The notes beneath the pieces were generated by a model that did no database searches, was not told the DNA's origin, and saw only the letters and a list, made by a program, of their open reading frames with translations. Source: Candidatus Bathyarchaeota archaeon (GTDB lineage Archaea; Thermoproteota; Bathyarchaeia; Bathyarchaeales; Bathycorpusculaceae). From it: a stretch of 64,000 nt of DNA. The DNA is taken from assembly GCA_963775685.1 (NCBI GenBank), contig CAVZJV010000014.1, forward strand, positions 416,001 to 480,000, read 5' to 3'. Made by a program: the position numbers and the translations under genes. Positions 41,174 through 55,705 of this stretch are shown here, piece after piece (the stretch's first letter is position 1; every line of letters begins with the position of its first letter).

Positions 41174-42264
41174 GCTTTGTCCCTAAATTAGGTATTGAAG
41201 TAAGTCGGTGATACAGCTTTCTCGTGTCTCCCAATTTTTTGAGCTGCTTCTCTATTGAGCACTAAACACAGAATACTACACAATGCATAGAACGTCACTT
41301 GCGCTAATTCCCTGACCTTATTGTTAGCCATGCTAAACTGCGTCTTTAGGAAACTGTTAACTGCCTCAATCAGCGGTCTCTTATGATACGCCGTCTTATC
41401 CTCTAAAGACCCATAAGTCCTAAACTTCCTATCAACCCGCAACAAACCCTCCACACCCTTACGATGATTAGCAGGATATGGAATAGTTGCCTTCTCAACA
41501 GCACACCTGAGCTTAGAATCGCTATATTGGCTATCCGCTACTACACTTCTAACTTTAGCTTTACAGTGTTTGAGAATTCCCTTGGCCTTTTCAAGTAGAG
41601 CCAGTGAATGTTTCTTTTAGTTTTGGTTTGCAGAGACAAAAACGCTTGACAGCGGCAACATGGTTTTGTGGTCGATGATAGGTGCATTTTGTAGCCCAGT
41701 GCATATGATCGACCCGATCTGCCAACTCTGGCTTGAGCATCTGAGAAGCCGATCTGGTTATCTGTTGGGTGACGTGTGCTCCAAGCCTTGATAAACGAGG
41801 CATCCAACACAACATCAACTTCGCTGCTTTGCTGAGATTTGAGCAGTTTGATTACTTTTTGATCGATTATTCTGTTGAGTTTGTCTTGGCCTACTCGTTT
41901 GCTGAATCGGCTCATTACGCTTCGGGTGTAACCTTTTTGGTTGTCTTTGATTAGGCAGAGCTTTCTAATTCTTAAATCAGTGTTTAGGATGCGTGTCATT
42001 TCTTTTAGACTACGTATCGCTTTCATTCGCATAATTAAGAATGCTCGAAATAGTCCCAGTGGGTTTCTGGGTCGTCTTCCTGGGCCGCTTGTGTGGAAGC
42101 ACTGTTTTATTAGGTTATTCGCAAAGCTTAAGTCTACGTTTTTGAAGAGGGTTTCAAGGGTCTCGTGTTCATCCTGTCTCGCAGGGATCACTTCCTTGTG
42201 TGATTGGTTCTCAATGACACGAGGCCCGTTTCTAGTTATAAGCTTTTCAATTTAGGGACAAGCC
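41174..42264 (-). mobile_element. IS5/IS4-like DDE insertion sequence with inactivated transposase (41188-42191)
   Basis: 13-bp perfect TIR core ttgtccctaaatt / aatttagggacaa; VVLDASFI, GYKMH, VADSQY, RPLIEAVNS; -1 shift near 41677 and in-frame TAA (ANQN*KKH). Confidence 0.85.
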
Positions 42265-44573: not shown

Positions 44574-45989
44574 ATGAGCAAAAAACAATCTAAGAAGTTT
44601 AATGTGTTTGTGAATGAAAGCCAGCTTTCCGGGCAAATGCTCCGCGAAGAGCCTGCTCAATGGATTCTTTCGCCGTTTGTCCATCTATTCAATATTGATG
44701 AATCGACGAAGTGTCTTTTCAATTCTTTAACTCTAAAGAAAGTATATTTAACCAACAAAAAGTACGAAAAGGTTTTATCAGATCTGAGTAAAGGCGAGCG
44801 CAGTAATGACGTTAAAGAATTAATTGAATTAAAATTTGTGGTGCCTCAGGGGTTTGATTCGGAAAAAGTGTTTGATGCTGTTGCATGTAGCTTGCTTAGA
44901 AAAAAAACACAAACTAATCTTGCCTACATTTTGGTGACTGACTTCTGCAATTTCAGATGCGGCTATTGCTTTATCGAAAATAATCTAAAAGGACCAAGCA
45001 TTTCAATGTCCAAGGATTTAGCAAACAAAGTCATAAACATTCTAATCAACGAAGCAAAACAGGTCCCAGAATTAAGGGTCACATTTTATGGGGGAGAGCC
45101 GTTTAGCAATAGCGAAATTGTTTTCTACATTATTGAGAAGCTTGAAGAAGCATCTAAGAAATTCTTGTTTTCCTGCGTAACAAATGGAAGCCTAATAACC
45201 GAAGATATAGCTAAAAAACTCAAACAACACAACGTTTCCGTAGGATTATCACTAGACGGATGGGCCAACATTGACAAAAACCGCGTTTTCACAGATGGAA
45301 AAGAAACCTTTTACCAAGCTCTCAAAGCCTTAGCTATTCTGAAAGAAGCAGGCGTAAACACAGGAATATCATGCACAATCACAAAACAAAACTATATGCA
45401 CGCAGAAGAAATAGTAGAATTTATCCAGAAACTGGGAGTTAGAACCATAGGCTTCAACTTGTTGACCAGACTTAAAGAGGCAAGCAAATTTGAGGTGCCT
45501 GATCCAAAACAACTCGCTCATCATCTTTTTGGAGCTTACTTAAAAGCAAAAGAATTGCACATGTTTGAAGATCGTATAGATAATCGGCGAGCAAGTTATT
45601 TTTTCAAAGAAATACTTCATTTGTACGATTGCCCAGCGTTCGGTCAACTATTATTTTTTTCGCCATCTGGAACAGTAGGACCTTGCCATGCGTTCTATCC
45701 GTCGGGGAAATATCAAATTCCAATTAAAGAGAATTTGAAAATTCAAGAAGAACCATTATTTCATAAATGGCTGGAAATAGGCACGCTAAAAAATAAAGAC
45801 TGCATGCGATGTGCTGCGATTGGAATTTGCGGCGGGGGCTGTGCTTACGATATCTATGTTAAGACTGGGCAACTTGGCATAAAAGAAGACTACTTCTGTA
45901 CTTTTCAAAATGAAATACTAAAGCTGCTAATTTCATACAATTTCCTGCTGCAATCTCAAAAAAACCAAATTGCTAAAACCAAAAGTTGA
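44574..45989 (+). CDS. radical SAM/SPASM peptide maturase
   Basis: CNFRCGYC, FYGGEP, VTNGSL, SLDG; SPASM CPAFG...GPC...CMRCAAIGICGGGC...FC; ~110-aa N-terminal extension (candidate RRE). Confidence 0.9.
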   Translation: MSKKQSKKFNVFVNESQLSGQMLREEPAQWILSPFVHLFNIDESTKCLFNSLTLKKVYLTNKKYEKVLSDLSKGERSNDVKELIELKFVVPQGFDSEKVFDAVACSLLRKKTQTNLAYILVTDFCNFRCGYCFIENNLKGPSISMSKDLANKVINILINEAKQVPELRVTFYGGEPFSNSEIVFYIIEKLEEASKKFLFSCVTNGSLITEDIAKKLKQHNVSVGLSLDGWANIDKNRVFTDGKETFYQALKALAILKEAGVNTGISCTITKQNYMHAEEIVEFIQKLGVRTIGFNLLTRLKEASKFEVPDPKQLAHHLFGAYLKAKELHMFEDRIDNRRASYFFKEILHLYDCPAFGQLLFFSPSGTVGPCHAFYPSGKYQIPIKENLKIQEEPLFHKWLEIGTLKNKDCMRCAAIGICGGGCAYDIYVKTGQLGIKEDYFCTFQNEILKLLISYNFLLQSQKNQIAKTKS

Positions 45990-46077
45990 AGAATTTTTCT
46001 CCAATAATCCAGCCCCAGCTTTACTTCACAATAAACATTAAATAAAACGACTTAATAGATCAATGTAGTGATTGTTT

Positions 46078-46494
46078 TTGTCAAAAAATAAACGCATACC
46101 TAACTCTTCCTTAAAAAAATCAGCGACTGTCCCATCGGAAAAAAAATTGACGCCAGCACAAAAGAAACGTTTACGGATAACTTTGGCGAAAATGCCGACC
46201 ATTGAAAAACTGGATCCTAAAATGTATGCAAAACTGCAATCAACAATACGTGATGCTGTAGCAAAAACTTTACCGGAATATCAGCAATGGGTAAATTCTT
46301 CATTAATAGCAGCCGACGACTGCCCGGTAGAACTCTGTAGTTCATGCGGCAACGACTGCCCGGTAGAACTCTGTAGTTCATGCGGCAACGACTGCCCCAC
46401 GCCAACTAAAAACATTGATGACATTGTCGTAAAAGCTGTCAACGAAGCTATGATGGGAGCAATTCGCCAGGCTATGAAAAAGCAGTTCAAATAA
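46078..46494 (+). CDS. RiPP-precursor-like protein 1 with internal 7-Cys repeated core
   Basis: basic N-terminus, helical leader, core DDCPVELCSSCGNDCPVELCSSCGNDCPTP, helical follower; lies between two radical SAM genes. Confidence 0.8.
   Translation: MSKNKRIPNSSLKKSATVPSEKKLTPAQKKRLRITLAKMPTIEKLDPKMYAKLQSTIRDAVAKTLPEYQQWVNSSLIAADDCPVELCSSCGNDCPVELCSSCGNDCPTPTKNIDDIVVKAVNEAMMGAIRQAMKKQFK
46316..46397 (+). repeat. 36-bp in-frame tandem repeat (2 perfect copies plus partial) encoding DCPVELCSSCGN
   Basis: acgactgcccggtagaactctgtagttcatgcggca at 46316 and 46352, then acgactgccc. Confidence 0.95.
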
Positions 46495-46611: not shown

Positions 46612-48201
46612 TTGCCTGTTTTTCTTTGCATTCCGCCAGTTTCTTCTTTAATTCCATATCCAGCAATTCCATACTTAACAAGCAGCCTGAGAGCAAATAA
46701 CCAAAAGGTAAACATATTTGATCTGAACATAAAGGCTTTCAACCTAACTCTTTTCTATCAGAGAATAGATATTAAACCCAGAGAAATTCTAAGGATAAGT
46801 AACAACACGAAAAAGGCAAAATCGAAAAGAGTTCCTAAGGCAGAGATTTACTCGACCATGCGAGAAAGCCAAACAATTTTTGAAGAAATAATGTTACAAG
46901 AGGCTTATGATAAATTAGGCTATAATGTCTCAGACTTGATGTTCAAAGATATTATCAGCGAAGAATCAAAGCAGGCAACGTTGTCGGATGTCTGGAAAAT
47001 TTGTAATGCTTGGTTTCTAGAAGTTGCCCACGATTCCAAACGGCAAAATATAGTGGGATTTCATGTAATAAGTCGTACTGGTTTGATGTGGAGCATCCTT
47101 CTGGCACGTAAATTAAAGAAAATTCAGCCCAGAATTTTGACAGCTTTGGGCGGTCCAGCATTCCTCTCAGTGCAAGAAGTTCTGTCCGTCAATTCAGAAA
47201 TTGACGTAATAGTTCGAGGGGAGGGCGAGGTCACGATTTCTGAGATAGCTAATTCTTATGACGGTAGTTTGGAATCAATAAAGGGAATCGATGGAATTTC
47301 CTACAGAACTGAAAAAAACGGAATTGTTTCCAATGCTGATCGACAATTGATGAAGTCTCTTGATGCTTTGCCTTTTCCCAATTACGATGATTTACCATTA
47401 CATGAATATCCTCAGAATAAGTTTGGGATGCCTGTAATGCCGGTTGTCGGCTCTAGAGGCTGTATTGGAGACTGTGTTTTTTGTGTTGAAAAACGTTTAT
47501 GGGGAAACACGTATCGGATGCGGTCACCAGAAAACATCGTATCGGAAATCAAGAATATTAAAGAAAAACATGGAACTTCCATCATTCGATTCAATGACAG
47601 CTTGATTAATTGTAATATCAAATCGCTAGAAAAACTCTGCGATTTATTGATTGAAGAGAAGGTTGGAATGCAGTGGTCGAGCAACTCCAGAATTCGTCCT
47701 GAAATGAACAACAAACTGCTTAGGAAAATGCGACAAGCGGGTTGTATGGGCTTGTGGTTTGGCATAGAATCTGGGTCCCAGAGAATTCTGCGCAAAATGA
47801 AAAAAGGGATTGATTTGGAAACTGCTAAAAACGTGCTCCGCGATACTGCAAAAAATGGCATCCGAGTTCAGATATTTATGATAGTAGATTTTCCAGGAGA
47901 AACTCAGAGAGATTTTAACGAGTCTGTTGCTTTCTTAGAGCAAAACCACCAATTTATTGACCAAGTCAGCGTTTCACGTTTTGGAGTCTTGCCTGATTCA
48001 GAAGTTTCTCATAACCCCCAAAAATATGGAATTGAGCTGATCAAAGGAAAAACAGGGGCCACTTACAGTTATTTGTATTCGCCCTTGCCCAATAGCTACC
48101 GATTTGAAAATCTACGTTCGGTTTGGAACCGCTTAAGCATGGAAAAAACATCAGGCTCAAAAAGAAATTATCTTCCAAAAATAATTGTTCCATATTACTA
48201 A
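46612..48201 (+). CDS. cobalamin-binding (class B-like) radical SAM protein
   Basis: B12-domain LGGPAF, VIVRGEGE; GSRGCIGDCVFC; RMRSPENIVSEI; GIESGSQRILRKMKKG. Confidence 0.9.
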   Translation: MPVFLCIPPVSSLIPYPAIPYLTSSLRANNQKVNIFDLNIKAFNLTLFYQRIDIKPREILRISNNTKKAKSKRVPKAEIYSTMRESQTIFEEIMLQEAYDKLGYNVSDLMFKDIISEESKQATLSDVWKICNAWFLEVAHDSKRQNIVGFHVISRTGLMWSILLARKLKKIQPRILTALGGPAFLSVQEVLSVNSEIDVIVRGEGEVTISEIANSYDGSLESIKGIDGISYRTEKNGIVSNADRQLMKSLDALPFPNYDDLPLHEYPQNKFGMPVMPVVGSRGCIGDCVFCVEKRLWGNTYRMRSPENIVSEIKNIKEKHGTSIIRFNDSLINCNIKSLEKLCDLLIEEKVGMQWSSNSRIRPEMNNKLLRKMRQAGCMGLWFGIESGSQRILRKMKKGIDLETAKNVLRDTAKNGIRVQIFMIVDFPGETQRDFNESVAFLEQNHQFIDQVSVSRFGVLPDSEVSHNPQKYGIELIKGKTGATYSYLYSPLPNSYRFENLRSVWNRLSMEKTSGSKRNYLPKIIVPYY

Positions 48202-48254
48202 GAGTTTACTTTCACGAAAACGTCTCCTAGCTTAGTCTTAATGTTAATCACCAA

Positions 48255-48300
48255 CCATAATTATTATCTTGAGAGAGCATAAAGAGAGCAGTGATTGTTT
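48255..48300 (+). promoter_or_regulatory. duplicated upstream element (putative promoter/RBS), also at 48832-48878
   Basis: accataattattatcttgagagagcataaagagagcagtgattgttt vs accataaatattatcttgggagatcataaatagagcagcgattattt. Confidence 0.45.
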
Positions 48301-48695
48301 TTGTCAAAAAATAAATCTGCACCTATCTATTCCACAAAAAACCTGACTCCAGCACAAAAGAAACGTTTAGAGAAAACTTTGGTAAAAATGCCAACTATTG
48401 AAAAACTGGATCCTGCAGTTTATGCAAAGCTGCACTCATCGATACGTGATGCCGTGGCGAAAACTTGCCGAAATATGAGAAGTGGGTAAATTCTTCATTG
48501 GTAGCAGCCGATGATTGCCCCCCGCCAACACCTGTATGTAGTTCTTGTAGCAACGATTGCCCCACGCAGCTTTGTAGTTCATGCGGTAACGAATGCCCAA
48601 CTCCAAATAGAAAACTGGACGATATGGTTGTTAATGCTGTCAACGAAGCTATGATGGGCGCAATTCGTCAAGCTTTGAAAGAGCAGTTCAAATAA
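48301..48695 (+). CDS. RiPP-precursor-like protein 2 (1-nt deletion at ~48465)
   Basis: paralog of 46078-46494; core DDCPPPTPVCSSCSNDCPTQLCSSCGNECPTP; aaaacttgccg lacks one T relative to KTLP. Confidence 0.78.
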
Positions 48696-48878
48696 GAAGC
48701 AGCTTTACGGTCAGAAACCGACCGCCATCAACTGAAAAACAGCTCTCGCCCATTTACACAACAAAGGTGTAGTGGCCACTATTTTTCTTTGCATTCCGCC
48801 AGTTTCTTCTTCAGTTCCATATCCTGCAAAAACCATAAATATTATCTTGGGAGATCATAAATAGAGCAGCGATTATTT

Positions 48879-49982
48879 TTGCCAAAAAATAAACCAGCAA
48901 CCAAACCCCTCTCTAAAAGACCTACAAAAGCCAAAAAACAAAATCAACGCCTAAACGCACCTTCGGAAAAACTTCCATATTTTGAAAAGTTAGATCCAGA
49001 AATTTATGCAAAACTGCAATCAACTGTCCGTGAAGTCATTGAAAAAACGTTGCCCGAGTACAAAGAATGGCTAAATTCCGCATTTGGCGAAAAAATCATA
49101 GGTAACGATTCTTCAAATGGTTCCCTGCAAAACATCGACAAGTTAGTGGTTTCGGCTGTTAACAATTTAATGGCAACTGCATTGGGTAAAGCTTTGAAGG
49201 AATGTGATGAGCAGCAAGGGACTATGGAAAAATGGTTTAAAATGAAATTTTATGATGACGTTTCTGACATTAGACCTGAAAGCAGAGCATATTACAAATA
49301 TTGTGTAGAAAAGTTCGTTACCGAATTTTTTACCGGACAAAAAATATTTGAAAAGAAAATCCTCGATTTTGGTTGTGGACCGGGATACTTTTCCAAGATT
49401 TTAGCCCAACGCGGAGCACTTATAACTGGAATTGACAGAAGTTTATTTCTGATTTCGAAAGCAAATGAACTTAAGCAAAGACTATGGCTTGAAAATGTAG
49501 AGTTTTTGCATGGGGATTTTCTTGATTTTGCAAAAAATATGCCCTCGGAAAAGTTTGACTATATTGTCGCGATAGATACGATTGTGAGTTTTGACTATTG
49601 CAGACAAACGCATAATCATAAGGATTTCACTCAGGCTTTAAGCGAAATTAGAAGAGTTATGAAAGACGAGGGTCGATTTTTTATTATTGAAGCGCATCCG
49701 TTTTTTGGTCAACTTGCGAAAGGCATAACTTCCTCAAGCAAAGGACGCTTTCATGGACGTTTACCTAATTACAAAATAGAGTACAATGCTAAAGACAATC
49801 CGCACCATTGGTTTACCCTTGATGAAATGACCCGTGCTCTTAGCGAGAATGGCTTGGCTATTTGTAGGATTTATGAGCCTGATCCAAGTGTTGAATTGGA
49901 AAAAGAAAACCCTCACTTATACAAATTTTATCTGAAGTATCCACATTTAATTGTGTATGAAATATGCAAAGCGAGAACCTAA
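48879..49982 (+). CDS. class I SAM-dependent methyltransferase with N-terminal precursor-scaffold domain
   Basis: ILDFGCGPG motif I, ITGID, FDYIVA, MKDEGRF; first ~110 aa align with the precursor leader and follower. Confidence 0.88.
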   Translation: MPKNKPATKPLSKRPTKAKKQNQRLNAPSEKLPYFEKLDPEIYAKLQSTVREVIEKTLPEYKEWLNSAFGEKIIGNDSSNGSLQNIDKLVVSAVNNLMATALGKALKECDEQQGTMEKWFKMKFYDDVSDIRPESRAYYKYCVEKFVTEFFTGQKIFEKKILDFGCGPGYFSKILAQRGALITGIDRSLFLISKANELKQRLWLENVEFLHGDFLDFAKNMPSEKFDYIVAIDTIVSFDYCRQTHNHKDFTQALSEIRRVMKDEGRFFIIEAHPFFGQLAKGITSSSKGRFHGRLPNYKIEYNAKDNPHHWFTLDEMTRALSENGLAICRIYEPDPSVELEKENPHLYKFYLKYPHLIVYEICKART

Positions 49983-51111: not shown

Positions 51112-52742
51112 CAGACTGTGTGAAAAGTCTCTTTCTATGCCTAGCTCCATTTACCGTTAAGCTTAAAGCTAGCTTCAGAACAACTGAAAAGCCATGAGTG
51201 AACATGTAAACGGAACCCACAGAGATCAAACAGTCCTTTTTCCCAACACCATCGACCAGTACGTAGACAAAGAAAACCCCGTCAGGTTCATCGACGCCTT
51301 CATCGACAGCCTAAACCTGGAAAAGCTTGGATTCAAACACTCCATTCCAGCGGAAACCGGAAGACCATCTTACAATCCCTCAGATTTACTCAAACTCTAT
51401 CTTTACGGATACCTCAACCAGGTGAGATCATGTCGCAAACTCGAGAAAGAATGCCACCGCAACGTCGAGGTCATGTGGCTCATGAAGAAACTTGCTCCCG
51501 ATTTCAAGACTATTGCTGACTTCAGAAAAAACAATGTGGACTGCATCAAAGGTGTATTCAAAGAATTTGTTTATCTCTGCAGGAACTTGGATCTTTATGG
51601 TGCTCAACTGATAGCGATTGATGGCACCAAATTCAAAGCCGTCAATTCCAAAAGCAATAATCTTAACGAGAAAACGGTCGCTTTGAAGCTCAAACAAACA
51701 GAAGAAAAGATAGCAGAGTACCTAAAAGAAATGGACCAAAACGATACGACCGATTCAGCAGAAGATGAAAATGTCAATGTCGATGAGCCCAACGAGAAAA
51801 TATGCAAACTTGAAGAAGAAAAGCAACGATACGAGCAGATTCAAGATCAAATGAAAGCAACAGGCCAGAAAGAAGTTTCACTTGTTGATCCAGATAGCCG
51901 TTTGATGCGGGTAGACAGTCAAAGGCTTGAAGTCTGCTACAACATTCAGACATCCGTGGATGCGAAGCAGCATTTAATCGTGGATTACGATGTTATCAAT
52001 AATTCAACTGACCATCACCAACTAGCGACGGACGCTAAGGCTGCAAAACAGGTACTTGGCGTTGATCAGCTCGAAGTTTTGAGTGACAAAGGCTTCTACG
52101 TTGCAAATGACCTCATTGAATGTGAAGAAGCTGGGATAACAGTGTTCATGCCGATTCCAGCTTTCAATCCGACTAAGAAGGTGGGTGTTCCAGAGCCTGA
52201 GTTTGGCTCTGAACGGTTTATCTTCAATGATCTGAAAGACGTTTACGTTTGCCCCGTTGGAAAGGAACTGGGATTTTGGAAGGGCAGTTTCAAGAGTAAA
52301 CCTGAAAATGGCAAGCGTTATAGAACAGTTTCTTGTGCTGATTGTAATTCTAGAAGTAGGTGCACTCGTAATAAGCGTGGCAGGATAATGGTGAGATGGG
52401 AGTATCAGGGTGCGGTTGATAGGCTCAGAGCACTGCTGATGAGTTCTGACGGAAAAGAGAAGGTGCGCTTGAGGAGGATTTTGGCAGAGCATCCTTTTGG
52501 AACCATGAAGCGGGCATTCAATCAGGATTATTTGCTCTTGAAGGGTCTTATAAAAGTCAAAGGAGAAGTAGGATTCACGATGCTAGCTTACAACATGAGA
52601 AGAGTCATCAATATTCTGGGAGTTGGTACGCTAATGGGTTTGATGAAGGCGTAAATAGAGAAAATAAGTGAACAATAATCCCAGACAAGAGCTTGAGTGC
52701 CAAATATTCTTAGGCTTTAACTGTAAGTTTTGACACAGTCTG
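51112..52742 (+). mobile_element. IS1182-family insertion sequence (copy B)
   Basis: TIRs CAGACTGTGTGAAAAGT / (rc) CAGACTGTGTCAAAACT; perfect 4-bp TSD catt at 51108-51111 and 52743-52746. Confidence 0.93.
51194..52654 (+). CDS. IS1182-family transposase
   Basis: 486 aa, close paralog of 37613-39073. Confidence 0.93.
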   Translation: MSEHVNGTHRDQTVLFPNTIDQYVDKENPVRFIDAFIDSLNLEKLGFKHSIPAETGRPSYNPSDLLKLYLYGYLNQVRSCRKLEKECHRNVEVMWLMKKLAPDFKTIADFRKNNVDCIKGVFKEFVYLCRNLDLYGAQLIAIDGTKFKAVNSKSNNLNEKTVALKLKQTEEKIAEYLKEMDQNDTTDSAEDENVNVDEPNEKICKLEEEKQRYEQIQDQMKATGQKEVSLVDPDSRLMRVDSQRLEVCYNIQTSVDAKQHLIVDYDVINNSTDHHQLATDAKAAKQVLGVDQLEVLSDKGFYVANDLIECEEAGITVFMPIPAFNPTKKVGVPEPEFGSERFIFNDLKDVYVCPVGKELGFWKGSFKSKPENGKRYRTVSCADCNSRSRCTRNKRGRIMVRWEYQGAVDRLRALLMSSDGKEKVRLRRILAEHPFGTMKRAFNQDYLLLKGLIKVKGEVGFTMLAYNMRRVINILGVGTLMGLMKA

Positions 52743-52851: not shown

Positions 52852-53904
52852 TCAAGACATAGGACCGGAAGTATTCAGGTTCAGATACTTGGAAGCTAAT
52901 CGCCTCATTGTTTCAAAATGCAGACTAATAGCAACCTTGCCTTTATCGGTTATTTGTATGAAGGTGCGGGGTCCTCCTGCCGTTTTGAAGCCTTTACGTA
53001 CGGTTATGTAGCTAGCATCTGATAGAGCATTGACGCTGTAATTCAAAGAGCTTTTTGAAACTTGAACTACCATCAGGAGGTCTGTAAAAGTGATTTGTTC
53101 AACTCCCAAAAGAGCAAGCATAATTCCAACCCTCGTAAAACTGGATAAAACACCTCCTGAAGCAAATTCGGAAAGACTAACATCATCCTGTTTTCTTGAG
53201 GGTAAGGGGTCTGTGCTGAAGCTGTCCTTTGCGCTCAAGACTTGCACGAGCTCTTGTGGAGCTTCAAACGACGATTTGATGCCAGCCAATAGAAACACAA
53301 GAATTAGGGAAACCAAATAGGTCGTTGTATTTATTTCCTGGAAAAAAGAAAGCATCAGCAACGTTGCAGGAAAAACTGCGACCAGCCAATCTTCTATGCG
53401 CCAAGGAAGAACACTGTCCGCGGACTGTTTTGAAAAAACAAGAAAGTAATAGAATAGTACATAACCAACAAATGCAATCAGCACTACGGAGCCAAGAACT
53501 GCACTGCTCGTTACTTCAAATATTGCGGCAGCAACTAAAGGCAAAAGAACAAGAGCAGTTCTTGCACTCTCCAAAAGCCTATTTAATCTGTGCCTATGTT
53601 TTTCCTGTTTTTGTTCAAAAAGATCCATGACAAGCCGCATTTGATAGAAGCGGTTCATTCCTGCCAAACGAGAAAAAAACAAAATCCCCAAAACCAATAG
53701 ACCTACAGAAATTAGTATAGCATACAAGGGCGCGGATAAAGAAACTAAAACGCCCACAAGAATCGGCACCATCGAAAGCAGGGCATAATAAACTCCAATT
53801 CCTCGTCTGGCTCTAAACCTAAATATTGATAGTGCAATATTTTTCGGCTTCTGCTCTTCCTCTTCTAGTAACTTTGCAATGCTATTCCCACTCGCCTTAG
53901 TCAT
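52852..53904 (-). CDS. multi-TM membrane protein with C-terminal winged-helix (MarR/HTH_34-like) domain
   Basis: about six hydrophobic helices, then TRVGIMLALL...ITFTDL...SKSSLNYSVNALSDASYI...PRTFIQITDKG. Confidence 0.75.
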   Translation of the reverse strand: MTKASGNSIAKLLEEEEQKPKNIALSIFRFRARRGIGVYYALLSMVPILVGVLVSLSAPLYAILISVGLLVLGILFFSRLAGMNRFYQMRLVMDLFEQKQEKHRHRLNRLLESARTALVLLPLVAAAIFEVTSSAVLGSVVLIAFVGYVLFYYFLVFSKQSADSVLPWRIEDWLVAVFPATLLMLSFFQEINTTTYLVSLILVFLLAGIKSSFEAPQELVQVLSAKDSFSTDPLPSRKQDDVSLSEFASGGVLSSFTRVGIMLALLGVEQITFTDLLMVVQVSKSSLNYSVNALSDASYITVRKGFKTAGGPRTFIQITDKGKVAISLHFETMRRLASKYLNLNTSGPMS

Positions 53905-54041
53905 AACTTGTGGATAACCTTAGATTTCAAATTATCCAAGATACCTTTAAAGTAATGCTGTTCAAAAATTGAACAACTAGCCCCACTTAAATAAAACGCA
54001 CTTTTTCTAATATCAATACAGAACTTAAACCTAAATCGCGG

Positions 54042-54974
54042 TTGCTTAATATGATTGAGACCGAGAACCTTACAAGAAAGTTCGGTGACCACATTGCAGT
54101 CGATAACCTAACTCTTCACGTAAACAAAGGGGAGGTCTTTGGCTTTCTTGGTCCCAACGGAGCAGGAAAAACCACAACCATACGAATGCTTTGCTGCTTA
54201 ATCTCCAAGACCAGCGGCAACGCCAGAGTCGGTGGTTATGAGATTGGTAAGCCAGAAAATTCTCTAATGATTAGAAAGATCATCGGACTTGTCCCTGACA
54301 ATGTGGGTCTCTACGAGTCTCTTACTGCCTACGAGAACCTTGACTATTACGGGAGACTGTACAGGCGAACTAGCGCCCAGCGGAAAGAGAGCAACGCGCA
54401 CTTTCTAAAGTTGCTTGGACTCTGGGAGAAAAGAAACGCGCTGGCGGGGACATTCTCAAAAGGGATGAAACAGAAACTCGCCATAGCACGAGCACTCGTT
54501 CACGACCCCGAAATACTTTTTATGGACGAGCCAACTGCGAACCTGGATCCCGAAGCTGCGAAGGCAGTAAGGGAATTTATTCTTGATTTAAAGAAAGAAA
54601 AGAAGACTATTTTCATCAATACCCACAACCTTGATGAGGCGCAAAGAATCTGCGATAGAATTGGCATCTTGAATACCAGGTTGATGGCAGTAGGTACTCC
54701 TGAAGAACTTGAACGGTCAATCCACGGGAGAAAAACTGTGATTCAACTTAGAATAGTAAGTAAAGCTATCTTGGATTCACTGAAGAGACTGCAGGTTAAA
54801 AACTTAGTCAAGGAAAGCAACAAGCTTACGGTCGATGTCGTGAATCCCGAGGAGGAGAATCCTGACATAGTAAGTGCTATTGCCACTGCCGGAGGACGCA
54901 TCGAAACGGTTACGGTAACCAGCAGTTCGCTAGAAGATGCTTACCTAAAACTAGTGAGGGAGAACACACAATGA
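54042..54974 (+). CDS. ABC transporter ATP-binding protein
   Basis: GPNGAGKTT, FSKGMKQK, LFMDEPT, H-loop NTH. Confidence 0.93.
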   Translation: MLNMIETENLTRKFGDHIAVDNLTLHVNKGEVFGFLGPNGAGKTTTIRMLCCLISKTSGNARVGGYEIGKPENSLMIRKIIGLVPDNVGLYESLTAYENLDYYGRLYRRTSAQRKESNAHFLKLLGLWEKRNALAGTFSKGMKQKLAIARALVHDPEILFMDEPTANLDPEAAKAVREFILDLKKEKKTIFINTHNLDEAQRICDRIGILNTRLMAVGTPEELERSIHGRKTVIQLRIVSKAILDSLKRLQVKNLVKESNKLTVDVVNPEEENPDIVSAIATAGGRIETVTVTSSSLEDAYLKLVRENTQ

Positions 54975-55705
54975 CCACCTGGATGCCATGGAATATAGCG
55001 CGCAAAGAAATGAAAGTAATAAGCAGAAAGAAAAGCATCATCGCCTACACCATTATACTTCCCATTCTCCTCTCATTTCTTTTCTCGCTCATCGTCAAGA
55101 ACCAAATAATTACGTCCTCGGGGGTTATCTCGAATTATTCACTGGGTCTTGAATGGCTCACGTACTTCTTTGTTGTTTTGGCAGCTATCTTGCCTAGTTC
55201 GATTGCAGCATATAGTATTGTGGGAGAGAAAGTGGAGAAGACTTTGGAACCGTTACTTGCAACTCCTATATCCGATGATGAGATACTGCTGGGAAAAAGC
55301 ATCGCTGCATTTCTACTTCCTATTCTTTCAATCTGGATAGGCGCTTCAATTTTCATGGCAGCAACGGATTTCCTAACTCATAATGTGTTGTCGTTCTATT
55401 ATTTTCCCAATTGGACTTCGGGGGTCATTTTGTTCTTCCTCGCTCCTCTTGGAGCAATATTAAGTATTGAACTGTCTGTTATTGTGTCGGCGCGCGTTAA
55501 CGATGTTAGAGGAGCGAACCAGATTGGGAGCCTCATGTTTATTCCGTTCATAGTTTTCTTCCTTGCAGGCGTGGAAGGAATAATAACGTTCAGTATCGAT
55601 AACCTGCTGATCTTCTCGGGCATTTTATTGATCGCTGATGTTCTCCTGTTCTTTTTGAGCAAATCAACATTCAGGCGAGAAGAGATACTGACCAAGTGGA
55701 AGTGA
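54971..55705 (+). CDS. ABC-2 type transporter permease
   Basis: SIVGEKVEKTLEPLLATP...ILLGK; six TM helices. Confidence 0.9.
   Translation: MTTWMPWNIARKEMKVISRKKSIIAYTIILPILLSFLFSLIVKNQIITSSGVISNYSLGLEWLTYFFVVLAAILPSSIAAYSIVGEKVEKTLEPLLATPISDDEILLGKSIAAFLLPILSIWIGASIFMAATDFLTHNVLSFYYFPNWTSGVILFFLAPLGAILSIELSVIVSARVNDVRGANQIGSLMFIPFIVFFLAGVEGIITFSIDNLLIFSGILLIADVLLFFLSKSTFRREEILTKWK

What the first reader, a model, noticed from the sequence alone, without database searches (positions are those of the whole stretch)
48879..49225. Methyltransferase carries a core-less copy of the precursor scaffold as its N-terminal domain
Seen: MT residues ~30-110 (FEKLDPEIYAKLQSTVREVIEKTLPEYKEWLNS...NIDKLVVSAVNNLMATALGKALKE) align with both the leader and follower of the precursors, but the Cys repeats are replaced by a short Cys-free loop (AFGEKIIGNDSSNGSLQ). 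The start context is also shared (TTG-[T/C]CA-AAA-AAT-AAA). Inference: leader and follower fold together into one helical domain that displays the core as a loop, and the tailoring enzyme uses the same domain to hetero-oligomerise with its substrate or dock on the maturase. That would be substrate recognition by precursor mimicry rather than a standard RRE.
Basis: partly seen in the sequence, partly recalled or inferred. Interest (0 to 1): 0.85.

Follow-up and report, generated by a model that had tools for sequence, protein, structure and literature searches.

The report
Methyltransferase fused to decayed precursor copy
In an uncultured archaeon, a peptide-tailoring methyltransferase is permanently fused to a worn-out copy of the small cysteine-rich protein that its gene cluster modifies, keeping that copy's recognition helix but not its reactive cysteines, which points to an unusual way for such an enzyme to find its substrate or its partner enzymes.

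Summary
Residues 5-108 of the 367-aa methyltransferase (MT, 48879-49982) align with the whole neighbouring precursor A1 (42% identity, E 1e-23). The Cys repeats are replaced by a short loop, and the upstream region and TTG start are shared. The organism is a Bathyarchaeota archaeon.

The fusion is not a one-off:
- All 21 related Bathyarchaeota loci keep it.
- 42 database proteins of 60-100% identity cover the full length.
- The N-domains lie on one side of a single branch of the precursor tree.

The loop is a vestigial core repeat. Distant homologues still read DDCSNDCPTP. Of 41 fused MTs, 4 keep two Cys, 15 keep one and 22 keep none.

The leader-like helix is as constrained as in true precursors (dN/dS 0.24 versus 0.19). 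The follower-like helix is relaxed (0.67 versus 0.28). Met116 matches the start of bacterial MT-only homologues.

The domain most likely works as a leader-mimic docking module. Its partner is unknown: the precursor itself, or a radical SAM maturase. Structure models were of low confidence.

I found no description of such a domain in my searches. I rate it a new variant of a known kind.

The parts
44574..45989 (+). Radical SAM/SPASM maturase (471 aa)
   Evidence: Pfam Radical_SAM 80 bits. The best NCBIfam hit is the FibroRumin maturase TIGR04136, at 181.7 bits and below its cut-off of 400. PapB, CefB and SCIFF maturases follow. The best solved relative is 5wgg/5why, E 1.8e-26.
46072..46494 (+). 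Precursor A1 (140 aa): basic tail, leader helix, two exact 12-aa Cys repeats, follower helix
   Evidence: ORF. Two 100% identical 36-nt repeats at 46316-46387. 159 homologues, none with a Pfam domain. AF2 predicts helices 28-40, 49-82 and 113-138, with a disordered core at 83-112.
46612..48201 (+). B12-binding radical SAM enzyme (529 aa), RiPP C-methyltransferase-like
   Evidence: Pfam Radical_SAM and B12-binding. NCBIfam TIGR03975, 'RiPP maturation radical SAM C-methyltransferase', scores 160.8 bits, below its cut-off of 281.85.
48295..48695 (+). Precursor A2, read in two frames in the window (48295-48489 and 48465-48695). One base is missing near 48464.
   Evidence: The orthologues are intact 133-aa ORFs in L010, L017, L019, L022 and L025. 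Relatives' contigs carry one extra base at 48463-48467 (table 4).
48779..48829 (+). 51-nt remnant of the 5' end of the B12-rSAM gene
   Evidence: 92% identical to 46616-46666 (family D7). The same remnant stands before the MT in L010, L011, L014, L017, L019, L022 and L032.
48831..48878 (+). Precursor-type upstream region. It holds an A/T-rich TATA-like stretch and a GTGAT-like Shine-Dalgarno remnant (both inferred), and is shared with A2.
   Evidence: The 69-nt repeat 48831-48899 is 87% identical to 48253-48321 (family D5). It is found before the MT in 18 of 21 Bathyarchaeota loci. The promoter and SD reading is my inference from the sequence.
48879..48977 (+). MT residues 1-33: basic Lys-rich tail, homologous to the precursor tail
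   Evidence: Alignments. dN/dS 0.38. AF2 pLDDT 30-34, disordered.
48978..49094 (+). MT residues 34-72: leader-like helix 1 (FEKLDPEIYAKLQST...EYKEWLNSAFGEK)
   Evidence: Columns invariant across precursors and N-domains are E36, P40, Y43, L46, P59, Y61 and W64. dN/dS is 0.24, against 0.19 for the same helix in real precursors. AF2 predicts a helix at 40-68.
49095..49130 (+). MT residues 73-84: vestigial core loop (IIGNDSSNGSLQ)
   Evidence: It aligns with ADDCSNNCPTP / ADDCSNDCSTQ / NDDCSSDCPTS / ADDCVNNCPTS in P0033, P0035, P0037 and P0040. Cys counts among 41 fused MTs are 22 with none, 15 with one and 4 with two. The loop is shortened in P0021 and P0027 and absent in P0047.
49131..49208 (+). 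MT residues 85-110: follower-like helix 2 (NIDKLVVSAVNNLMATALGKALKE)
   Evidence: It aligns with the precursor follower NIDDIVVKAVNEAMMGAIRQAMKK. dN/dS is 0.67, against 0.28 in real precursors. AF2 predicts a helix at 83-112.
49209..49223 (+). MT residues 111-115: linker that replaces the precursor's last residues and stop codon
   Evidence: Precursors end ...KEQFK-stop, whereas the MT reads on as ...KECDEQQGT-MEKWF. dN/dS for residues 111-118 is 0.115.
49224..49982 (+). MT residues 116-367: class I SAM-dependent methyltransferase domain, starting at the ancestral Met
   Evidence: Pfam Methyltransf_31 78.8 bits, residues 159-273. Bacterial homologues P0062 and P0084 begin MEQWF / MKQWF at this point. 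M116 is invariant in 41 sequences. dN/dS 0.135.

Best explanation
Origin. The first ~115 residues of the MT are a degenerate paralogue of the cluster's own precursor protein. A whole precursor gene was joined once, in an ancestor of these Bathyarchaeota, to the original start Met (now Met116) of a class I SAM methyltransferase. The joined gene brought its upstream region, its TTG start, its basic tail, its leader helix, one core repeat and its follower helix. That MT family also accompanies SPASM maturases and Cys-repeat precursors in bacteria.

Fate. The core repeat has since decayed and its Cys residues have been lost piecemeal. The leader-type helix has been kept under purifying selection as strong as in real precursors.

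Function (inferred, not shown). The domain is a leader mimic. It lets the MT occupy a site that normally binds a precursor's leader helix. That site could be on a radical SAM maturase (SPASM or B12 enzyme) or on the helices of a precursor molecule. Methylation would then be tied physically to the maturation complex instead of depending on a separate recognition domain.
For: Shown:
- Homology over tail, helix 1, loop and helix 2: E 1e-23. The upstream region and start are shared.
- The fusion is present in all 21 Bathyarchaeota loci found. 14 are intact single ORFs of 358-374 aa, 4 are broken only inside the MT domain, and 3 have a frame change in the loop.
- 42 of 94 protein hits cover at least 98% of the MT at 60-100% identity.
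- Intact short-read versions of the distant clade exist (P0033-P0044).
- 28 N-domains are separated from 31 precursors by one branch with SH-aLRT 99.
- The loop is a vestigial core repeat, with Cys lost in 22 of 41 and partly lost in 15 of 41.
- Indels in the domain keep the frame.
- dN/dS pooled over 15 intact genes: helix 1 0.24, linker 0.115, MT 0.135, helix 2 0.67. The baseline in 16 true precursors is helix 1 0.19 and follower 0.28.
- Polar and hydrophobic residues E36, K37, D39, P40, Y43, K45, L46, Q47, S48, K56, P59, Y61 and W64 are invariant or nearly so across both precursors and N-domains.
- Met116 equals the start of the bacterial homologues. Those sit beside SPASM enzymes and Cys-repeat precursors with a leader and a follower.
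- The scaffold is fused to nothing else. A profile search of 1.84 billion representatives gave 19 hits, and the MT cluster was the only fused form.
- An RNA-library contig of a relative runs across the N-domain/MT junction (X18 record 10, 48920-49308). This is weak support, because such libraries can hold DNA.

Inferred: the docking function, from retention of the leader-type helix and its family-wide invariant residues.
Against: - No binding partner is shown.
- AF2 models give only low-confidence helices for the domain (pLDDT 42-65). They show no confident packing of leader on follower in the precursor (pTM 0.31).
- If the domain occupied the maturase's leader site it would compete with the substrate, which needs an oligomeric or multi-site complex.
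- Bacterial homologues of the MT work in similar clusters without any such domain, so it is not required for the chemistry.
- The follower-like helix is drifting (dN/dS 0.67), so the 'whole scaffold' is not conserved as a unit.
- Translation from the TTG at 48879 is not proven. A product starting at Met116 could coexist.
- The pooled pairwise dN/dS values are not phylogenetically independent.
Confidence: 0.55

Rival explanations
1. Leader in cis. The fused leader-type helix binds the MT's own catalytic domain and holds it in an active (or auto-inhibited) state. The MT can then act on cores regardless of their leader. That would suit a genome with one MT and several divergent precursors.
For: - The genome has a single MT of this family.
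- It has at least five precursor-type genes and two intact SPASM paralogues.
- The short linker is strongly conserved (dN/dS 0.115).
- Engineered leader-enzyme fusions that activate RiPP enzymes are known. I recall this and did not look it up here.
Against: - Nothing here shows a leader-binding site on the catalytic domain.
- Bacterial homologues lack the domain.
- The AF2 model gives no confident placement of the N-domain.
Confidence: 0.15
2. Substrate in cis, borosin-like. The fusion arose as a precursor-enzyme fusion whose single core repeat was itself modified. Lineages that keep 1-2 Cys may still be modified by the SPASM enzyme or the MT. In the window's lineage the domain is a relic on its way out.
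For: - 4 of 41 homologues keep both Cys in a DDCSNDCPTP-like repeat and 15 of 41 keep one.
- MT-precursor fusions exist in borosins. I saw the search listings of 10.1101/2021.12.24.474128 and 10.1101/2024.01.09.574750 only.
Against: - Helix 1 is equally conserved in Cys-less members, including some with the loop shortened or absent (P0021, P0027, P0047).
- The Cys positions change freely to S/G/Y/A/F/R.
- dN/dS of helix 1 is 0.24 in a set where most members lack Cys.
Confidence: 0.12
3. Decoy or regulator. The N-domain competes with precursors for the maturase's leader-binding site and so limits or times maturation, rather than helping methylation.
For: The same evidence as for leader mimicry: a conserved leader-type helix. 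In addition, the MT carries the precursor-type upstream region and so is probably co-expressed with the precursors.
Against: A decoy need not be fused to an enzyme. The fusion junction and the MT are both under strong constraint in every locus.
Confidence: 0.1
4. Untranslated relic. The MT is made from Met116 only, and the upstream 345 bases are a dead third precursor gene that happens to be in frame.
For: - Met116 is the ancestral start.
- The start at 48879 is a TTG.
- Gene callers gave shorter products for some homologues (P0032, P0042, P0045, P0049 and P0051).
Against: - The frame is open and in phase in 42 proteins down to 60% identity, and indels keep the frame.
- dN/dS is 0.24 for helix 1 and 0.115 for the linker.
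- The precursor stop codon has been lost in all of them.
- At least two of the short calls (P0049, P0051) come from contigs with a frame change in the loop.
Confidence: 0.05

Closest known systems
Borosin-type methyltransferase-precursor fusions (OphMA and relatives). Recalled; here I saw only the search listings of 10.1101/2021.12.24.474128 and 10.1101/2024.01.09.574750.
   Same: A methyltransferase and precursor-derived sequence sit in one polypeptide, and both split and fused architectures occur within one family.
   Different: In borosins the core is present, C-terminal, and is the substrate. Here the precursor part is N-terminal, is homologous to free-standing precursors of the same cluster, and has lost its core. 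The MT here is a Rossmann-type class I enzyme (Pfam Methyltransf_31 and others), with no match to another MT fold.
Engineered leader-peptide-to-enzyme fusions of RiPP enzymes (for example lanthipeptide synthetase with the leader fused in cis). Recalled, not looked up.
   Same: A leader sequence is covalently attached to a modifying enzyme.
   Different: Those are laboratory constructs made to activate the enzyme on leaderless cores. This is a natural, conserved fusion that also carries a tail, a vestigial core and a follower helix.
RiPP recognition element (RRE, PqqD-like domain)
   Same: Presumed role: it links a tailoring enzyme to leader-dependent recognition.
   Different: An RRE binds the leader, whereas this domain resembles the leader. 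It has no PqqD/RRE match among the Pfam hits of the MT, and it is predicted to be two long helices.
Crp cluster of Methanococcus voltae: CrpA/CrpB/CrpC (PMC13692751; I read the abstract and sections 8 and 13)
   Same: Both are archaeal. A SPASM radical SAM enzyme acts on a protein-sized Cys-repeat substrate. Paralogues share an N-terminal region, and the authors suggest that recognition may involve domain-domain contacts beyond RRE-leader binding.
   Different: CrpC belongs to TIGR04463, while the window's SPASM enzyme scores best with TIGR04136. Crp has no methyltransferase and no enzyme-precursor fusion.
FibroRumin, PapB and CteB-type SPASM thioether maturase systems
   Same: They give the best family and structure matches of the SPASM enzyme, with Cys-rich repeat precursors next to it.
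   Different: The score is below every curated cut-off (181.7 against 400 for TIGR04136). The precursors are 140 aa with a long helical leader and a helical follower. A B12-rSAM and the fused MT are added.

Membership tests
Class I SAM-dependent methyltransferase (catalytic part, residues 116-367) | Rossmann-type MT domain above the Pfam gathering score | tested here: met
   Methyltransf_31 78.8 bits (cut-off 27), Methyltransf_11 61.6 bits and Methyltransf_25 57.4 bits. Foldseek finds class I MTs at E around 1e-12 to 1e-13.
Class I SAM-dependent methyltransferase (catalytic part, residues 116-367) | Gly-rich SAM-binding motif | tested here: met
   D163, G165, G167, P168 and G169 (DFGCGPG) are invariant in 41 sequences. 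That this motif binds SAM is recalled knowledge.
Unnamed Bathyarchaeota precursor scaffold family (A1-like) | Leader motif EKLDP..Y..L....(K)..P.Y..W | tested here: met
   E36, P40, Y43, L46, P59, Y61 and W64 are invariant across 15 N-domains and 19 precursors. The profile search returns the MT cluster at E 1.8e-35.
Unnamed Bathyarchaeota precursor scaffold family (A1-like) | One or more CP..(L/I)CSSCGND core repeats | tested here: not met
   The window's MT has GNDSSNGSLQ with no Cys. Relatives keep at most one degenerate repeat.
Unnamed Bathyarchaeota precursor scaffold family (A1-like) | Follower helix followed by a stop | tested here: not met
   A follower-like helix is present but relaxed (dN/dS 0.67). 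The stop is lost and the frame runs on into the MT.
SPASM thioether RiPP system (ranthipeptide/sactipeptide type), for the cluster as a whole | Radical SAM/SPASM maturase next to a Cys-rich precursor | tested here: met
SPASM thioether RiPP system (ranthipeptide/sactipeptide type), for the cluster as a whole | Membership of a curated maturase family (TIGR04136, NF047865, TIGR03974 and others) | tested here: not met
   All scores are below the cut-offs: 181.7 against 400, 150.4 against 340 and 109.7 against 425.
SPASM thioether RiPP system (ranthipeptide/sactipeptide type), for the cluster as a whole | Thioether cross-links formed, leader removed, product exported | not testable with these tools
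   Chemistry cannot be read from sequence. No protease or transporter is conserved next to the cassette in the two loci checked, L013 and L015.
Borosin-type MT-precursor fusion | The core peptide is present in the same chain and serves as substrate | tested here: not met
   The core is decayed, with no Cys in the window and in 22 of 41 homologues.
Borosin-type MT-precursor fusion | Borosin alpha-N-methyltransferase fold/family | tested here: not met
   Only class I Rossmann MT families match. That borosin MTs belong to another family is recalled.
RRE (PqqD-like) recognition domain | PqqD-like winged-helix sequence or fold in the N-domain | tested here: not met
   No such Pfam hit at E <= 0.01. 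AF2 predicts two helices only, at low confidence.
RRE (PqqD-like) recognition domain | An RRE in the SPASM enzyme's N-terminal ~118 residues, the candidate docking site | tested here: inconclusive
   Residues 1-119 have no Pfam match at E <= 5 apart from chance-level hits. The NCBIfam FibroRumin alignment starts at residue 33. No structure model was made.

The most novel reading that the evidence does not exclude
Substrate recognition by precursor mimicry. The precursor's leader and follower helices form a hairpin that self-associates. The MT carries a core-less copy of that hairpin and so co-assembles with real precursors, or takes a precursor's place on the maturase. This would be a natural 'pseudo-substrate' targeting domain: a route to RiPP-enzyme specificity that needs no RRE, made by fusing and then gutting a precursor gene.
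Probability: 0.35. Interest if true: 0.8.

Novelty: new variant of a known kind. Interest (0 to 1): 0.62.

Why it matters
How tailoring enzyme families with no known recognition element find their substrates is an open question in RiPP biosynthesis. This family offers a natural, conserved case in which the answer may be written in the enzyme itself: a copy of the substrate's recognition helix with the reactive core worn away.

The family preserves a graded series, with two, one or no Cys and with the loop shortened or absent. That series documents how a precursor turns into an enzyme domain.

The case is directly testable by comparing full-length MT with MT starting at Met116. It also sits in a previously undescribed archaeal (Bathyarchaeota) cassette: a SPASM enzyme, a B12-rSAM, a methyltransferase and 140-aa leader-core-follower substrates. 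If the mimicry holds, it would give a design principle for targeting enzymes to RiPP assembly complexes.

Tried and rejected
- Complex prediction. I ran MT residues 30-118 against A1 residues 38-140, both with alignments. The verdict was 'no answer' (score 0.02 against a mark of 0.32) and the controls were not run. This counts neither for nor against binding.
- AF2 of the full MT and of A1. The helices are predicted but confidence is too low to say whether leader and follower pack together.
- Protein Atlas look-up of the N-domain: no usable hit.
- Pfam and NCBIfam on A1, on the second A2 frame (48465-48695) and on the N-domain. Nothing scored above a cut-off. A weak LppA hit (17.7 bits against 26.4) was rejected as chance.
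- Pfam on the SPASM N-terminus for an RRE: only chance-level hits.
- Foldseek of the MT model. It returned generic class I MTs only, including CypM at rank 21, and gave no clue to the substrate atom.
- Generalising the mimicry to bacteria. I compared the N-terminal extension of the MT with the neighbouring precursor in one Verrucomicrobiota locus and one Bacillota locus. There was no similarity (E 42 and 4.3).
- A search for a conserved protease or transporter beside the cassette. Flanks differ between loci L013 and L015.
- Earlier findings of this scan: none for this place or sequence.
- Literature searches. I found no paper describing a core-less precursor copy fused to a tailoring enzyme, and none on Bathyarchaeia RiPP radical SAM clusters (0 papers). 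I saw listings and abstract starts only, except for PMC13692751. I did not consult supplements.
- Public sequencing runs. No run held half or more of the stretch's sampled words. Parts of the stretch without cover in the four RNA libraries are not used as evidence.
Full report
WHAT IS THERE

The window is G000:C14:416001-480000 of a 3.06-Mb, 14-contig genome. On its + strand it holds a compact cassette:
- a radical SAM/SPASM enzyme (44574-45989);
- precursor A1 (46072-46494);
- a B12-binding radical SAM enzyme (46612-48201);
- precursor A2 (48295-48695, read in two frames in this assembly);
- a 367-aa protein (48879-49982) whose residues ~155-275 are a class I SAM methyltransferase.

Related loci carry record titles 'Candidatus Bathyarchaeota archaeon' in 21 of 24 cases.

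BLASTP of A1 against the MT gives E 1e-23 and 42% identity over 124 columns. A1 residues 16-137 align with MT residues 5-108. The gap falls exactly where A1 has its two Cys repeats.

At the DNA level, 48831-48899 is 87% identical to the region before and across the start of A2. The codons TTG-(C/T)CA-AAA-AAT-AAA are shared. A 51-nt remnant of the B12-rSAM gene's 5' end (48779-48829, 92%) lies between A2 and this region. This shows that the region has been rearranged by duplication and deletion.

The finding's end coordinate coincides with Met116 (49224). Bacterial MT-only homologues start with the same M(E/K)QWF.

THE FUSION IS CONSERVED AND AROSE ONCE

A tblastn map shows N-domain and MT domain contiguous in all 21 Bathyarchaeota loci, behind SPASM, A1 and usually the B12 enzyme. 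The 21 loci divide as follows:
- 14 have one intact ORF of 358-374 aa;
- 4 are interrupted only inside the MT domain;
- 3 (L023, L024, L029) change frame in the loop.

Many of these assemblies show scattered frame breaks in other genes too, so I treat the breaks as probable assembly errors. Intact proteins of the same distant clade exist in other sources (P0033-P0044).

In the protein database, 42 of 94 hits cover at least 98% of the MT at 60-100% identity. The hits of 62% identity or less that cover about 67-73% are MT domain only.

On a tree of 59 rows, 28 N-domains lie on one side of a single branch from 31 precursors (SH-aLRT 99; midpoint root for drawing only).

A profile of N-domains plus precursors, run over 1.84 billion representatives, found 19 proteins. 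The MT cluster was the only fused form. One further 275-aa protein matched the Cys-repeat positions only, at E 3.2e-4.

The free precursor family has 159 hits, none with a Pfam domain and none with a functional description of this family.

THE LOOP IS A WORN-OUT CORE

In the distant fused MTs the loop reads ADDCSNNCPTP, ADDCSNDCSTQ, NDDCSSDCPTS or ADDCVNNCPTS. That is one collapsed copy of the precursor repeat. Among 41 fused MTs, 4 keep two Cys, 15 keep one and 22 keep none. The Cys positions are replaced by S, G, Y, A, F or R. P0021 and P0027 have a shortened loop and P0047 has none. The window's GNDSSNGSLQ is one end of this series.

SELECTION

I computed pooled pairwise Nei-Gojobori estimates for 15 intact genes and for 16 true A1 orthologues.

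| Segment | Fused MT | True precursor |
|---|---|---|
| Tail | 0.38 | 0.75 |
| Pre-helix | - | 0.22 |
| Leader helix / helix 1 | 0.24 | 0.19 |
| Core / loop | 0.26 | 0.19 |
| Follower / helix 2 | 0.67 | 0.28 |
| Linker | 0.115 | - |
| MT domain | 0.135 | - |

The leader-type helix is therefore held as tightly in the enzyme as in real substrates, and the follower-type helix is not.

E36, P40, Y43, L46, P59, Y61 and W64 are invariant across both groups. K37, D39, K45, Q47, S48 and K56 are nearly so. These estimates are not phylogenetically independent and the segments are short.

STRUCTURE

AF2 predicts two long helices in the N-domain (40-68 and 83-112) at pLDDT 42-65.

In A1 it predicts helices 28-40, 49-82 (pLDDT about 80) and 113-138, around a disordered core, with pTM 0.31. 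The models agree with a helix-loop-helix layout. They do not show that the helices pack.

CONTEXT

- The MT catalytic domain has homologues of 54-58% identity in a Verrucomicrobiota MAG and a Bacillota MAG. There they sit next to FibroRumin-like SPASM enzymes and 162-194-aa Cys-repeat precursors that also have a leader and a helical-looking follower. Their short N-terminal extensions do not resemble their precursors. The MT family is thus an old companion of such systems, and the precursor-derived domain is a Bathyarchaeota addition.
- The window's genome has one MT of this family. It has two intact SPASM paralogues plus a broken one. It also has further precursor-type genes on contigs 5, 7 and 14.
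- In two loci examined, nothing next to the cassette is conserved and no protease or transporter is seen. The 140-aa 'precursors' may therefore be modified small proteins rather than cleaved peptides. The Crp system of Methanococcus voltae has been proposed to work that way (PMC13692751; I read the abstract and sections 8 and 13).

EXPRESSION

Contigs from four metatranscriptome libraries of relatives cover parts of the stretch. One (X18 record 10, 48920-49308) runs across the N-domain/MT junction. Such libraries can contain DNA, and contigs show neither starts nor strands, so this is only weak support for one transcript.

HOW IT MOST LIKELY WORKS

Shown: a precursor paralogue was fused to the MT once, lost its core, and kept its leader-type helix under purifying selection.

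Inferred: the helix still does what a leader helix does, which is to bind the partner that recognises precursors. That partner may be a maturase, and the SPASM enzyme's first ~118 residues are a candidate that I could not test. It may instead be the helices of a precursor molecule. I put 0.55 on this docking reading as a whole.

The rivals, in order of confidence:
- leader in cis acting on the MT itself, 0.15;
- substrate in cis, 0.12;
- decoy, 0.10;
- untranslated relic, 0.05.

The relic reading is contradicted by the open, in-phase frame across 42 proteins, by the frame-keeping indels and by the dN/dS values.

COMPARISON AND NOVELTY

The nearest concepts are these:
- borosin MT-precursor fusions, where the core is present and is the substrate;
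- engineered leader-enzyme fusions, which are laboratory constructs (recalled);
- RRE domains, which bind leaders rather than resemble them.

Five literature searches turned up no description of a core-less precursor copy serving as a domain of a tailoring enzyme, nor of this Bathyarchaeota cassette. I saw only listings and abstract starts, apart from PMC13692751, and no supplements.

I rate it a new variant of a known kind. It is interesting mainly because it is conserved, shows its own evolutionary intermediates, and can be tested with simple constructs.

Noticed in passing
window 48295-48695 (break near 48464): Precursor A2 is split into two frames by one missing base (AAAACTTGCCG here, against AAAACTTTACCG in A1). 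Its orthologues are intact 133-aa ORFs in L010, L017, L019, L022 and L025. Contigs of relatives in three RNA libraries carry one extra base at 48463-48467. This is either an assembly error or a strain-specific pseudogene.
   Followed up: partly
window 48779-48829; also L010, L011, L014, L017, L019, L022, L032: A 48-51-nt remnant of the B12-rSAM gene's 5' end stands just before the MT's upstream region. In L011 the B12 gene itself is missing and only this remnant is left. The cassette has a history of tandem duplication of [precursor + B12 gene] followed by internal deletion.
   Followed up: partly
window 48879-49208 and 46072-46150: Synonymous divergence is lower in the N-domain's tail and helices (dS 0.31-0.34) than in the loop, linker and MT domain (0.56-0.66). 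It is also low in the precursors' tail (0.23). Possible causes are gene conversion among paralogues or a constraint on the RNA. I did not examine this.
   Followed up: no
window 46316-46387: The two core repeats of A1 are 100% identical at the DNA level (36 nt each). Homologues carry from one to five or more repeats (for example L002 one, P0176 five), so repeat number changes fast.
   Followed up: partly
G000 C5:19092-19454, C7:31511-31936, C14:1189008-1189319 (L002, L004, L005): There are three more precursor-type genes elsewhere in the genome. One lies next to a second intact SPASM paralogue (67% identity, C14:1189594-1191000). One lies next to a SPASM gene full of stops (C5). There is no second MT of this family.
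   Followed up: partly
L027 5634-6218 and L028 8820-9308: The bacterial relatives of the cassette (Verrucomicrobiota and Bacillota MAGs) encode 162-194-aa precursors. These have long Cys-repeat arrays (CGTNCHSD x6; CAPPVD x7) and a C-terminal follower, beside a FibroRumin-like SPASM enzyme and the MT. They match no NCBIfam family.
   Followed up: partly
window 51194-52654 and 41541-42191: A complete DDE transposase gene (DUF772 + DDE_Tnp_1_6) lies 1.2 kb downstream of the MT, and a partial DUF772 ORF lies upstream of the cassette. L013 also has a DUF772 transposase next to its cassette. The cassette's flanks differ between loci.
   Followed up: partly
window 52852-55705: A membrane protein with a C-terminal winged-helix domain (HTH_34) sits next to an ABC-2 type transporter pair (ATPase 54042-54974, permease 54971-55705), beyond the transposase. 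I did not test whether they serve the cassette. They are not next to it in L013 or L015.
   Followed up: no
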